Shown here one piece after another: positions 8,461 through 21,591 of a stretch of DNA of 64,000 bases. The notes under the pieces were generated by a model. It was given only the letters and a program-made list of their open reading frames with translations. It was not told the DNA's origin and searched no databases. Both the position numbers and the translations under genes were made by a program. The stretch lies in assembly GCF_055900595.2 (NCBI RefSeq), contig NZ_CM148325.1, one strand, 5' to 3'. How positions within the stretch are numbered: the stretch's first letter is position 1; every line of letters starts with the position of its first letter.

Positions 8461-9693
8461 ATGGCAAAGGTATCGCTGGAGAAAGACAAGATTAAGTTTC
8501 TGCTGGTAGAAGGCGTGCACCAAAAGGCGCTGGAAAGCCTTCGTGCAGCGGGTTACACCAACATCGAATTTCACAAAGGCGCGCTGGATGATGAACAATT
8601 AAAAGAATCCATCCGCGATGCCCACTTCATCGGCCTGCGATCCCGTACCCATCTGACTGAAGACGTGATCAACGCCGCAGAAAAACTGGTCGCTATTGGC
8701 TGTTTCTGTATCGGAACGAACCAGGTTGATCTGGATGCAGCTGCAAAACGCGGGATCCCGGTATTTAACGCACCGTTCTCTAATACGCGCTCTGTTGCGG
8801 AGCTGGTAATTGGCGAACTTCTGCTGCTATTGCGCGGCGTACCGGAAGCCAACGCTAAAGCGCACCGTGGTGTCTGGAACAAGCTGGCAGCTGGCTCTTT
8901 TGAAGCGCGCGGCAAAAAGCTGGGTATCATCGGCTATGGTCATATTGGTACACAGTTGGGCATTCTGGCTGAATCGCTGGGAATGTATGTTTACTTTTAT
9001 GATATTGAAAACAAACTGCCGCTGGGCAACGCCACTCAGGTACAGCATCTTTCTGATCTGCTGAATATGAGCGATGTGGTGAGTTTGCATGTGCCAGAGA
9101 ATCCGTCTACCAAAAATATGATGGGCGCGAAAGAGATTTCGCTAATGAAGCCCGGCTCGTTGCTGATTAATGCCTCGCGCGGAACGGTGGTGGATATTCC
9201 GGCACTGTGTGATGCGCTGGCGAGCAAACACCTGGCAGGTGCGGCAATCGATGTCTTTCCGACGGAACCGGCGACCAACAGCGATCCGTTTACCTCTCCG
9301 CTGTGCGAGTTCGATAACGTCCTTCTGACGCCACATATTGGCGGTTCGACTCAGGAAGCACAGGAGAATATCGGTCTGGAAGTTGCAGGTAAATTAATCA
9401 AGTACTCTGACAATGGCTCAACGCTCTCTGCGGTGAACTTCCCGGAAGTCTCGCTGCCACTGCATGGTGGGCGTCGTCTGATGCACATCCACGAAAACCG
9501 TCCGGGCGTGTTAACTGCGCTGAACAAAATCTTCGCCGAGCAGGGCGTTAACATCGCTGCACAGTATCTGCAAACCTCAGCGCAGATGGGTTATGTGGTT
9601 ATTGATATTGAAGCTGACGAAGACGTTGCCGAAAAAGCGCTGCAGGCAATGAAAGCTATTCCGGGCACCATTCGCGCCCGTCTGCTGTACTGA
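8461..9693 (+). CDS. serA: D-3-phosphoglycerate dehydrogenase
   Basis: 410-aa ORF MAKVSLEKDKIKFLLVEGVHQKALE with a C-terminal ACT domain. Confidence 0.95.
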   Translation: MAKVSLEKDKIKFLLVEGVHQKALESLRAAGYTNIEFHKGALDDEQLKESIRDAHFIGLRSRTHLTEDVINAAEKLVAIGCFCIGTNQVDLDAAAKRGIPVFNAPFSNTRSVAELVIGELLLLLRGVPEANAKAHRGVWNKLAAGSFEARGKKLGIIGYGHIGTQLGILAESLGMYVYFYDIENKLPLGNATQVQHLSDLLNMSDVVSLHVPENPSTKNMMGAKEISLMKPGSLLINASRGTVVDIPALCDALASKHLAGAAIDVFPTEPATNSDPFTSPLCEFDNVLLTPHIGGSTQEAQENIGLEVAGKLIKYSDNGSTLSAVNFPEVSLPLHGGRRLMHIHENRPGVLTALNKIFAEQGVNIAAQYLQTSAQMGYVVIDIEADEDVAEKALQAMKAIPGTIRARLLY

Positions 9694-9715
9694 TCTCCCT
9701 TCTTTAATAATCAAC

Positions 9716-9744
9716 GGGCAAGTCACTGGCTTGCCCGTTTTTTT
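9716..9744 (+). terminator. rho-independent terminator of serA
   Basis: GC stem gggcaagtcactggcttgccc followed by a T7 run. Confidence 0.6.
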
Positions 9745-10455
9745 GTGCACAGAAAACCCCCAGCTAGGCTGGGGGTTCCGGAAAGCTTTCAGCTTTGAGC
9801 CAGTTATTAAAACCCCTTTTGATTTGTTAAAACACCTTGCGGTCTGGCAACTGCAAGTGTCAAACAAGAAATCAAAAGGGGGTCCCAATGGGGGACGAAA
9901 AGAGCTTAGCGCACACCCGCTGGAACTGTAAATATCACATAGTTTTTGCGCCGAAATACCGAAGACTGGCGTTTTACGGAGAGAAGCGTAGGGCGATAGG
10001 CAGTATTTTGAGAAAGCTGTGTGAGTGGAAAAGCGTACGGATTCTGGAAGCAGAGTGCTGCGCAGATCATATCCATATGCTTGTGGAAATCCCACCCAAA
10101 ATGAGCGTATCCGGCTTTATGGGATATCTGAAAGGGAAAAGCAGTCTGATGCTTTACGAGCAGTTTGGGGATTTGAAATTCAAATACAGAAACAGGGAGT
10201 TCTGGTGCCGAGGGTACTATGTCGATACGGTGGGTAAGAACACGGCGAAGATACAGGACTACATAAAGCACCAGCTTGAAGAGGATAAAATGGGGGAGCA
10301 GTTATCGATTCCATATCCGGGCAGCCCGTTTACGGGCCGTAAGTAACGAAGTTGAATGCAAATGTCAGATCGTATGCGCCTGTTAGGGCGCGGCTGGTAA
10401 CAGAGCCTTACAGGCGCATTTGAAAAACCTCCGGCTATGCCGGAGGATATTTATT
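9745..10455 (+). mobile_element. IS200-type insertion sequence (IS200/IS605 family); boundaries approximate
   Basis: Single 152-aa tnpA; perfect palindrome cccccagc-tag-gctggggg at 9757-9775 on the upstream side and two hairpins downstream (about 10374-10420 and 10428-10447); no terminal inverted repeats, as expected for IS200. Confidence 0.7.
9888..10346 (+). CDS. tnpA: IS200 transposase TnpA (Y1 HuH transposase)
   Basis: ATG at 9888 within ORF 9837..10346; protein MGDEKSLAHTRWNCKYHIVFAPKYRR...ADHIHML...RGYYVDTVGKN matches IS200 TnpA, including the HxH motif and the C-terminal tyrosines. Confidence 0.9.
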   Translation: MGDEKSLAHTRWNCKYHIVFAPKYRRLAFYGEKRRAIGSILRKLCEWKSVRILEAECCADHIHMLVEIPPKMSVSGFMGYLKGKSSLMLYEQFGDLKFKYRNREFWCRGYYVDTVGKNTAKIQDYIKHQLEEDKMGEQLSIPYPGSPFTGRK

Positions 10456-10599
10456 ATCCCTTTTCCCGCGCATGTCACTGCCATTTGTAATGCGCTGCAA
10501 TTGCCTTTGCGAGTCTGCTCGAAGAAATAAATCAAAGCCAGATCAATGCGTTGTGCTTATTTAAAGAGAGTTTACGATGGCAGGGCAGCATGGGGCTGT

Positions 10600-10743
10600 A
10601 ACGGTAAAGCCCTCACCGAAGCGAGGGCTTGAAGGAGAAGGGTTATGATGCGACTCGTCATCATACTGATTGTACTGTTACTGATAAGTTTGCCAGCTTA
10701 TTAACAGTCAGTCACAGGGGAGGAGTCATCCTCCCTTACCCTT
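10600..10743 (-). ncRNA. sibC: SibC antisense sRNA (antitoxin of ibsC); ends approximate
   Basis: Minus-strand sigma70-like promoter (TTGACA at 10779-10774, 17-bp spacer, TAATTT at 10756-10751) reading across ibsC; hairpin gccctc-accgaag-cgagggc at about 10611-10630. Confidence 0.5.
10645..10704 (+). CDS. ibsC: type I toxin IbsC (19-aa hydrophobic peptide)
   Basis: atgatgcgactcgtcatcatactgattgtactgttactgataagtttgccagcttattaa encodes MMRLVIILIVLLLISLPAY, preceded by the Shine-Dalgarno gaaggagaag; located between serA and fau as in K-12. Confidence 0.7.
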   Translation: MMRLVIILIVLLLISLPAY

Positions 10744-10804
10744 ACTCACTAAATTAGGTTAAAGAATCAACGATGTCAATCAGGGCGATGCAGGTGTGTC
10801 GCCC

Positions 10805-21492: not shown

Positions 21493-21591
21493 GCCTGATG
21501 CACCTCGTTTATCAGGCCTACATAGTCTGTGCAATGTATTGAATTTGCACGATCTTGTAGGCTGGATAAGGCGTTCACGCCGCATCCGGCA
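21493..21591. repeat. BIME: two inverted REP units
   Basis: gcctgatgcacctcgtttatcaggcctaca and tgtaggctggataaggcgttcacgccgcatccggca match the REP consensus in opposite orientations. Confidence 0.65.

What the first reader, a model, noticed from the sequence alone, without database searches (positions are those of the whole stretch)
9745..10455. IS200-type element inserted between the serA terminator and the sibC/ibsC locus
A complete 152-aa IS200 TnpA ORF, bracketed by strong palindromes, begins immediately after the serA terminator. From memory, K-12 has only about 0.3 kb between serA and fau and no IS here, so this looks like a strain-specific insertion. Its right end lies about 150 bp from the SibC terminator, so read-through or structure from the IS could affect the toxin-antitoxin pair.
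Basis: partly seen in the sequence, partly recalled or inferred. Interest (0 to 1): 0.45.

Follow-up and report, generated by a model that had tools for sequence, protein, structure and literature searches.

The report
Ordinary IS200 inserted after serA terminator
This is a complete, already well-known small jumping gene (IS200) sitting just behind the serA gene's stop signal, the kind of site this element family habitually lands on, and nothing in the sequence suggests that it disturbs its neighbours.

Summary
Window 9745-10455 is a 711-bp IS200 with an intact 152-aa Y1/HUH transposase (9888-10346), the left-end terminator hairpin, the stem-loop that sequesters the ribosome-binding site, and a right-end hairpin. 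There is no target duplication. It lies between the T7 tail of the serA terminator and ATCC. K-12 MG1655 and 99.7% of complete E. coli genomes have the empty site CCCG-T7-ATCC.

The element is 100% identical to annotated IS200 copies at four other loci in four E. coli strains, so it is known and recently mobile.

It is not unique to this strain. 17 of 5426 complete E. coli genomes carry an IS200 at this site, in two variants about 4% apart and with differing junction registers, so the site was probably hit more than once.

The position is typical. 94 of 118 IS200/IS1541 left junctions from other genomes abut a GC hairpin plus a TTNTT tail, against 0.7% of random positions.

SibC (10603-10743, minus strand) and ibsC (10645-10704) are intact, 147 and 189 nt away. 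Terminator-like hairpins lie at both IS ends, so an effect on the toxin-antitoxin pair is unsupported but untested.

Verdict: an ordinary, known element of low interest. The terminator-targeting pattern is a modest side finding.

The parts
8461..9693 (+). serA (phosphoglycerate dehydrogenase), the upstream neighbour
   Evidence: 410-aa ORF. Annotated as serA in all matching E. coli records.
9713..9744 (+). serA intrinsic terminator: hairpin 9713-9739 plus a T7 tail at 9738-9744. The tail is the target, and the last 5 nt of the left flank are TTTTT.
   Evidence: Terminator scan, inverted repeat I3, DNA fold. The T7 run is retained intact in both filled and empty sites.
9745..10455 (+). IS200 element, 711 bp, no terminal inverted repeats and no target-site duplication
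   Evidence: Empty-site alignments. The ends GTGCACAGAA... and ...GGAGGATATTTATT are shared with other copies whose flanks differ. It is 711/711 identical to copies at the pckA, cutC, potE and HCP5S3 loci.
9755..9777 (+). Left-end perfect hairpin AACCCCCAGC-TAG-GCTGGGGGTT. It corresponds to the bidirectional terminator (IS200 nt 12-34) and is the presumed TnpA-binding hairpin.
   Evidence: Function taken from Ellis 2015. TnpA binding is inferred from the IS608 paradigm.
9755..9878 (+). tnpA 5' region matched end to end by Rfam RF01405 (STnc490)
   Evidence: 146.4 bits, E 4.9e-31, model positions 1-124 of 124.
9813..9881 (+). 5'UTR stem-loop whose 3' arm covers the Shine-Dalgarno sequence AAGGGGGT (9876-9883)
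   Evidence: Inverted repeat I1, 16 nt, 94% complementary. Corresponds to IS200 nt 69-138 in Ellis 2015.
9808..9898 (-). Predicted art200 antisense sRNA (about 90 nt, 5' end at IS200 nt 153/154). Coordinates are inferred by transfer and are accurate to about 2 nt.
   Evidence: Positions transferred from Ellis 2015. Expression was not tested here.
9888..10346 (+). tnpA, a 152-aa Y1 HUH transposase with H61-I62-H63 and catalytic Y125
   Evidence: Y125F is catalytically dead in Ellis 2015. The DNA is identical to copies annotated WP_000502112.1.
10374..10419 (+). Inner right-end hairpin (14-nt arms)
   Evidence: Inverted repeat I2, DNA fold.
10428..10455 (+). Terminal right-end hairpin CCTCCGGC-TAT-GCCGGAGG plus the tail ATATTTATT. 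It is terminator-like on both strands and has the same overall form as the left-end hairpin.
   Evidence: It is conserved in about 60 Yersinia IS1541 copies, after which the flanks diverge.
10603..10743 (-). SibC antitoxin sRNA, intact, with its 3' end 147 nt from the IS right end
   Evidence: Rfam SIB_RNA at 135.9 bits (10629-10779; the model includes the promoter). Transcript ends transferred from the K-12 sibC annotation.
10645..10704 (+). ibsC toxin ORF (MMRLVIILIVLLLISLPAY), intact, with its start codon 189 nt from the IS right end
   Evidence: Aligned to K-12 ibsC.

Best explanation
Window 9745-10455 is an intact copy of the known insertion sequence IS200 (IS200/IS605 family, IS200 group). 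It carries only tnpA, which encodes a Y1 HUH single-strand transposase.

It entered this lineage recently by the family's 'peel and paste' single-strand route. It landed directly 3' of the TTTTT tail of the serA intrinsic terminator. Its top strand lies on the lagging-strand template. It duplicated no target bases.

The position is not accidental. IS200-group elements insert overwhelmingly right after a GC-rich hairpin followed by a TTNTT tail. That structure looks like the element's own right end (hairpin plus ATATTTATT). This makes the serA terminator a reusable landing pad and explains why other E. coli lineages carry IS200 at the same spot.

The copy is self-silenced by its left-end terminator hairpin, the stem-loop that hides the ribosome-binding site, and the art200 antisense RNA. 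It leaves the serA terminator, SibC and ibsC intact, so it is most likely neutral for its neighbours.

Shown here: identity, boundaries, the empty site, recurrence at the site, and the flank statistics. Inferred: the single-strand mechanism, recognition of the hairpin by TnpA, silencing in this host, and neutrality.
For: Identity: Pfam Y1_Tnp; NCBIfam transpos_IS200 equivalog; solved homologues including IS608 and ISDra2 TnpA; Rfam STnc490 matched over its full length; 711/711 identity to annotated IS200 copies at four other E. coli loci.

Boundaries and absence of duplication.

Empty site: K-12 and nearly all E. coli, since only 17 of 5426 genomes are filled. The closest relatives at this locus, EC42405 and 2020CK-00188, match it in two pieces covering 61% of the query, the empty-site pattern. 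EC42405 was confirmed empty by alignment.

Recent arrival: the IS is 100% identical to copies elsewhere, whereas the chromosomal flanks are about 94.5-98.7% identical to E. coli.

Recurrent hits: two IS variants differing at 27-33 of 711 positions, five junction registers and at least six fau alleles among carriers.

Target rule: 94 of 118 unique left junctions abut a hairpin plus T tail, against 0.7% of random positions and 5.6% of all TTNTT sites in the same loci. T is invariant at positions -5, -2 and -1. Five of five E. coli copies at other loci follow the rule. In Y. pestis, tandem copies sit on another copy's right end.

Orientation: GC skew is positive across the window, so the + strand is the lagging-strand template.

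Insulation: terminator-like hairpins at both ends, with function from Ellis 2015. A preprint reports terminator-like sequences enriched just upstream of IS200/IS605 elements.
Against: No transposition, RNA or protein data exist for this copy.

The hairpin association could partly reflect survival of harmless insertions rather than target choice.

It is dominated by Y. pestis, Vibrio ruber and a few MAGs, so the 118 junctions are not a balanced sample.

T-run length differences between same-site copies could come from replication slippage rather than separate insertions.

A 2-nt ambiguity remains in the cleavage register.

Recent literature describes IS200 as essentially immobile (2024 bioRxiv abstract). 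That fits poorly with 'recent' arrival, unless E. coli differs from Salmonella.

An effect on ibsC/SibC cannot be excluded from sequence alone.
Confidence: 0.9

Rival explanations
1. The IS alters expression of the SibC/ibsC toxin-antitoxin pair. This could happen through read-through from tnpA into ibsC, an outward promoter, or changed local structure.
For: tnpA and ibsC are on the same strand, and the right end is only 189 nt upstream of the ibsC start codon and 147 nt from the SibC 3' end. IS200 5' transcripts act in trans on other genes in Salmonella (abstracts).
Against: The right-end hairpin scores as terminator-like on both strands. tnpA has a weak promoter and the left end carries a bidirectional terminator (Ellis 2015). 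The 10456-10644 segment matches empty-site strains apart from a few SNPs. SibC and ibsC are intact. The insertion lies outside both transcripts.
Confidence: 0.08
2. The terminator-adjacent position reflects selection only. IS200 would insert at any T-rich pentanucleotide, and only harmless insertions behind terminators would persist. No hairpin recognition would be involved.
For: Intergenic sites downstream of genes are the least harmful. The preprint that reports the enrichment interprets it as a niche that limits transposase expression. In IS608 and ISDra2 the target is a bare tetra- or pentanucleotide (and established knowledge).
Against: The hairpin abuts the junction within a few bases in 80% of copies, against 5.6% of all TTNTT sites. 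The pattern holds in Y. pestis, where IS expansion is recent and selection is relaxed (established knowledge). Insertions also occur on another copy's right-end hairpin and on the palindrome inside the lac operon between lacZ and lacY. The same nucleotide is hit repeatedly at serA.
Confidence: 0.25
3. The element is an old resident at this locus, inherited vertically, and the empty sites in other E. coli arose by precise excision. Alternatively, the filled allele arrived by homologous recombination of a larger segment from another carrier rather than by transposition in this lineage.
For: The IS200/IS605 family excises seamlessly, so an empty site does not by itself prove that the site was never occupied (established knowledge). 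Seventeen other genomes carry IS200 here.
Against: The IS is 100% identical to copies at other loci, while the flanks differ from E. coli by 1.3-5.5%. 99.7% of genomes are empty, and the nearest relatives at this locus show the empty-site pattern. The two same-variant carriers (19KM1831, OX030728) have a different right-flank allele and a different junction register from the window, which argues against a shared imported segment.
Confidence: 0.07

Closest known systems
IS200 of Salmonella and E. coli (IS200/IS605 family, IS200 group; RefSeq TnpA WP_000502112.1)
   Same: The whole element matches: a single tnpA, left-end terminator hairpin, stem-loop that sequesters the ribosome-binding site, art200 region, right-end hairpin and no target duplication. 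It is 711/711 identical to annotated E. coli copies. The layout matches Ellis 2015.
   Different: It is 711 bp rather than the 707 bp quoted for the Salmonella reference. It differs at 27-33 of 711 positions (4-8 amino acids) from the commoner E. coli 'IS200C' variant, which occupies the same serA site in other strains.
IS1541 of Yersinia pestis and Y. pseudotuberculosis
   Same: The 24-nt left-end hairpin and the right-end hairpin plus ATATTTATT are identical. The left-flank rule (hairpin plus TTNTT) is the same.
   Different: The first 10 nt are GTGCCCAGAA rather than GTGCACAGAA. Copy number is high, with tandem dimers in Y. pestis. Whole-element divergence was not measured.
IS608 (H. pylori) and ISDra2 (D. 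radiodurans), the mechanistic paradigms
   Same: They share a homologous Y1 HUH TnpA (E 3e-19 and 5e-16), sub-terminal hairpins, insertion 3' of a short target, single-strand intermediates and a bias for the lagging-strand template (established knowledge).
   Different: They also carry tnpB. Their targets (TTAC, TTGAT) are not reported to need an adjacent hairpin. IS200's cleavage sites have not been mapped biochemically, to my knowledge.
Group IIC introns and REP-targeting IS elements such as ISPpu9 (similar in behaviour only)
   Same: These mobile elements home to DNA hairpins: intrinsic terminators or attC sites for IIC introns (established knowledge), and REP palindromes for ISPpu9 (abstract). 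They therefore land in harmless intergenic sites.
   Different: Their enzymes and chemistry are unrelated (retrohoming; other transposase families). This is a resemblance in behaviour, not membership.

Membership tests
IS200/IS605 family, IS200 group | Encodes a Y1 (HUH) transposase of the IS200 type | tested here: met
   Pfam PF01797 E 9.1e-37. NCBIfam NF033573 equivalog at 144.4 bits against a cut-off of 55. PDB homologues 2EC2, 2F4F, 2A6M and 2XM3.
IS200/IS605 family, IS200 group | HUH motif and catalytic tyrosine present, reading frame intact | tested here: met
   H61-I62-H63 and Y125 in an uninterrupted 152-aa ORF. Y125F is catalytically dead in Ellis 2015.
IS200/IS605 family, IS200 group | tnpA is the only gene (no tnpB) and the length is about 0.7 kb | tested here: met
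   711 bp, with 143 nt before tnpA and 109 nt after it.
IS200/IS605 family, IS200 group | No terminal inverted repeats; sub-terminal hairpins at both ends | tested here: met
   Left-end hairpin 9755-9777 and right-end hairpin 10428-10446. The ends GTGCAC... and ...TTTATT are not inverted copies of each other.
IS200/IS605 family, IS200 group | No target-site duplication; insertion 3' of a short specific target | tested here: met
   The empty site T7-ATCC becomes T7-IS-ATCC. The left flank TTTTT fits the TTNTT consensus from 97 copies in the four best-sampled left-end groups.
IS200/IS605 family, IS200 group | IS200-specific left-end regulatory layout: terminator hairpin, stem-loop that sequesters the ribosome-binding site, art200 region | tested here: met
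   Rfam RF01405 matched over its full length at 146 bits. The positions match nt 12-34 and 69-138 of Ellis 2015.
IS200/IS605 family, IS200 group | Top strand on the lagging-strand template | tested here: met
   Positive GC skew on the + strand across the window. tnpA is on the + strand and runs in the same direction as serA. The rule itself comes from established knowledge (Ton-Hoang et al. 2010, recalled from memory).
IS200/IS605 family, IS200 group | Transposes through single-strand excision and integration catalysed by TnpA | not testable with these tools
   Needs a biochemical or mating-out assay. Salmonella TnpA is active in E. coli according to Ellis 2015.
Type I toxin-antitoxin locus SibC/ibsC (neighbour, not part of the IS) | Sib sRNA overlapping, on the opposite strand, an intact 19-codon ibs ORF | tested here: met
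   Rfam SIB_RNA at 135.9 bits. ibsC translates to 19 aa. It aligns to K-12 sibC/ibsC.

The most novel reading that the evidence does not exclude
IS200-group transposases may actively recognise intrinsic terminators in single-stranded DNA (a GC hairpin followed by TTNTT) as mimics of the element's own right end. Terminators such as serA's would then be reusable, nucleotide-precise landing pads. IS200, usually described as nearly immobile, would still be moving in E. coli. [quoted passage not shown] The right-end-mimicry mechanism and the recurrent same-nucleotide hits would be new.
Probability: 0.45. Interest if true: 0.4.

Novelty: already known. Interest (0 to 1): 0.15.

Why it matters
For the window itself it matters little. 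It is a correctly recognised copy of a long-known insertion sequence in an intergenic spot, with no sign of damage to serA, SibC/ibsC or fau.

Its practical value is as an annotation and typing marker. The site is filled in only about 0.3% of complete E. coli genomes.

The wider point is modest. The position behind the serA terminator shows a strong, family-wide habit of IS200/IS1541 of landing on a terminator hairpin plus T tail. The serA terminator also seems to have been hit more than once. If the preference reflects true target recognition, it would explain why these elements are so often harmless. It would also give a concrete substrate (the serA terminator oligonucleotide) for the still missing biochemistry of IS200 target choice.

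Tried and rejected
(1) Literature on IS200/IS1541 target choice. Six full-text searches found no explicit statement that IS200 targets terminators. The exception is one preprint that reports the enrichment. The He et al. 2015 family review is not held, so prior description there cannot be excluded.

I therefore fetched six other E. coli copies singly. Five gave clean left junctions. In the sixth (SC418) my string search did not find the left end, and I did not pursue it.

(4) I considered that the IS might extend to 10461, because BLAST identity with the EC21Z-151 copy ran into ATCCCT. I rejected this. ATCC is present in every empty site, and the EC21Z-151 right flank merely begins with the same 6 nt by chance.

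(5) I considered that the invariant TT before the left end belongs to the IS. Empty sites cannot resolve this. I kept the family convention that the target lies 5' of the left end.

(6) The organism was not identified. The locus is about 94.5-97% identical and gcvP at best 98.7% identical to 5425 E. coli genomes. That fits a divergent E. coli-level lineage absent from the collection. Placing it in 'cryptic clade I' would be a guess.

(7) The promoter scan found no consensus ibsC promoter on the + strand. A weak TTGTGC-N16-TACGAT candidate at about 10552-10579 comes from my reading only.

Full report
**What is in the sequence.**
serA ends at 9693. Its intrinsic terminator follows: a hairpin at 9713-9739 and a run of seven T at 9738-9744. 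From 9745 to 10455 lies a 711-bp block that K-12 MG1655 and almost all E. coli lack. The block contains these features:
- a perfect 10-bp hairpin at 9755-9777;
- a long stem-loop (arms 9813-9828 and 9866-9881) whose 3' arm covers the Shine-Dalgarno sequence AAGGGGGT;
- an uninterrupted 152-codon ORF at 9888-10346;
- two further hairpins, at 10374-10419 and 10428-10446;
- the tail ATATTTATT, ending at 10455.

As single-stranded DNA both ends fold far better than shuffled sequence, with z-scores of -6.1 and -3.4.

**Identity.**
- The ORF matches Pfam Y1_Tnp (E 9.1e-37).
- It matches the NCBIfam equivalog transpos_IS200 at 144 bits against a cut-off of 55.
- It aligns to the solved TnpA structures of Sulfolobus IS200-like elements, IS608 and ISDra2.
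- The HUH motif is H61-I62-H63. The tyrosine at position 125 is the one whose Y125F change abolishes IS200 TnpA activity (Ellis et al. 2015, PMC4513863).
- Rfam RF01405 (STnc490, the IS200 5' region) matches 9755-9878 over its full length at 146 bits.
- The layout agrees with the published map: terminator hairpin at nt 12-34 and stem-loop at nt 69-138. The antisense RNA art200 has its 5' ends at nt 153/154. By transfer, art200 lies at about 9808-9898 on the minus strand.
- The whole 711 bp is identical, base for base, to annotated IS200 copies next to pckA, cutC and potE and at a fourth locus, in four unrelated E. coli strains. In those strains the TnpA is WP_000502112.1.

**Boundaries and the empty site.**
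I aligned the window with filled and empty alleles and with K-12 MG1655. The empty site reads CTTGCCCG-TTTTTTT-ATCC. The filled site reads T7-[GTGCACAGAA...GGAGGATATTTATT]-ATCC. Nothing is duplicated. Because the insert ends in TT, its register is ambiguous by 2 nt. The right end is confirmed independently: about 60 Yersinia IS1541 copies share ...GGAGGATATTTATT and diverge immediately after it. The K-12 serA-fau gap is 388 bp. Here it is 1111 bp, which is 400 bp plus the IS.

**How common the insertion is.**
About half of complete E. coli genomes (2646 of 5426) hold IS200-like sequence, with a median of 2 and up to 35 places per genome. Only 17 of 5426 have it between serA and ibsC.
- The nearest relatives of the window at this locus (EC42405, 2020CK-00188) match it in two pieces covering 61% of the query, the pattern of an empty site. 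EC42405 was confirmed empty by alignment.
- The chromosomal flanks are about 94.5-97% identical to E. coli here, and gcvP is at best 98.7% identical. The IS, in contrast, is 100% identical to copies elsewhere. It therefore arrived recently and is not an old resident.
- Of the twelve same-site copies I examined, two are the window's variant (one difference in 711). Ten are the 'IS200C' type, differing at 27-33 of 711 positions. One of these has a premature stop in tnpA.
- Junction registers differ. T7|IS|ATCC occurs in the window and six other genomes. T6|IS|T-ATCC occurs in 19KM1831. T7|IS|T-ATCC occurs in three genomes. TUM2330 has T8, and SX4 has T7ATT|IS|T-ATCC.
- Carriers have at least six different fau protein alleles.

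Together this points to several independent hits on the same T-run. Slippage in the T-run and gene conversion between IS copies could account for part of the variation.

**Why this spot.**
I scanned one genome per species for the 24-nt left-end hairpin. The scan returned 120 stretches from Y. pestis, Vibrio ruber, Brenneria, Edwardsiella, Pluralibacter and several gut MAGs. Nearly every left junction lies directly after a GC-rich hairpin followed by a T-rich tail.
- By a strict rule (stem of at least 5 bp, loop of 3-8 nt, T-rich tail of 3-9 nt abutting the IS), 94 of 118 unique junctions qualify.
- The same rule is met by 0.7% of random positions and by 5.6% of all TTNTT sites in the same loci.
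- The last five flank bases are TTNTT. T is invariant at positions -5, -2 and -1 in 55 Y. pestis junctions.
- Five E. coli copies at other loci follow the rule: after the pckA and cutC terminators, next to potE, at the HCP5S3 locus, and on the palindrome between lacZ and lacY.
- In Y. pestis some copies sit directly on another copy's right end, which is itself a hairpin plus ATATTTATT.

The serA terminator (hairpin plus T7) is thus a textbook target.

[quoted passage not shown] It interprets this as a niche that limits transposase expression. My reading is that TnpA or the single-strand pathway recognises the hairpin plus tail as a mimic of the right end. That is an inference. Survival of harmless insertions is the main alternative.

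**Orientation.**
GC skew is positive on the + strand across the window. The + strand is therefore the lagging-strand template, and it carries the IS top strand. This is the orientation expected for this family (established knowledge).

**Neighbours.**
- By transfer from the K-12 annotation, SibC is 10603-10743 on the minus strand. ibsC is 10645-10704 on the plus strand and encodes MMRLVIILIVLLLISLPAY.
- The IS right end is 147 nt from the SibC 3' end and 189 nt from the ibsC start codon.
- The segment in between matches empty-site strains apart from a few substitutions.
- The serA terminator keeps its full T7 tail.
- The IS carries terminator-like hairpins at both ends. The left one is a documented bidirectional terminator, and tnpA has a weak promoter.

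I therefore see no sequence support for an effect on the toxin-antitoxin pair, though only RNA measurements could exclude one.

**Verdict.**
The element is an already known IS200, the insertion is not unique to this strain, and its position is typical for the family. Interest is low. The one point worth keeping is the strong terminator-tail targeting and the repeated use of this terminator as a landing site.

Noticed in passing
L006-L067: The exact 24-nt IS200 left-end hairpin occurs in MAGs assigned to very distant groups: Oxalobacter, Peptococcaceae, a Bacillota bacterium, Saccharibacteria, Mailhella/Desulfovibrio and Elusimicrobiaceae. It is usually 10-200 nt from a contig end. Each group has its own 10-11-nt leader (for example GTGAAACGAA or GGTTAAAAGAA). 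This may reflect wide horizontal spread or binning contamination.
   Followed up: partly
L071 2403-3800, L073 1330-2750, L070, L117 (minus-strand coordinates as): Yersinia pestis NCTC5923 carries head-to-tail IS1541 dimers in which ...ATATTTATT of one copy directly abuts GTGCCCAGAA of the next.
   Followed up: partly
window 9755-9878 (+): Rfam RF01405 'STnc490' matches the tnpA sense strand. Ellis 2015 describes STnc490/art200 as the RNA antisense to this region. The Rfam model therefore appears to represent the 5'UTR strand.
   Followed up: partly
window 10629-10779 (-) versus 10603-10743 (-): The Rfam SIB_RNA match is shifted about 30 nt upstream relative to the K-12 sibC annotation. The model begins with the TTGACA promoter box and stops before the terminator hairpin (10607-10630).
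   Followed up: yes
window 10645-10704 (+): IbsC ends ...ISLPAY here but ...ISFSAY in K-12 MG1655, a difference of two residues in a 19-aa toxin.
   Followed up: partly
window 10465-10500: Just right of the insertion site, E. coli has two alleles of a short segment. The long form is CCCGCGCATGTC.CTGCCATTTGTA.TGCGCTGCAATTGC (window, EcPF15, EC42405, WP8). A 12-nt shorter, unrelated-looking form is CCACACCGTTGCCGC.TTGCGCATTCTAC (K-12 and most carriers).
   Followed up: no
L129 (SX4) and L127 (TUM2330), left and right junctions: SX4 has T7-ATT before the IS, which may be a footprint of an earlier event or of another copy's right end. TUM2330 has T8 before the IS and a right end reading ATATTTTTT instead of ATATTTATT.
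   Followed up: no
L134 (CU42ET-1) 684-1097: The same-site IS200 copy in this strain has a premature stop in tnpA. It is annotated as a 414-nt CDS, and the 459-nt frame contains a stop codon.
   Followed up: partly
L137 (FFFEB2): An IS200 copy lies inside the lac operon between lacZ and lacY, in the opposite orientation to the operon, landed on the intercistronic palindrome plus TTATT.
   Followed up: partly
window 21514-21556 (-): A borderline Rfam match to ES036 (CssrF) sRNA, at 38.4 bits against a gathering score of 37.6, lies just after gcvP.
   Followed up: no
window, whole: No genome among 5426 complete E. coli is closer than 98.7% (gcvP) or 97.1% (the serA-fau locus). The window therefore comes from a divergent E. 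coli-level lineage that is not in that collection.
   Followed up: partly
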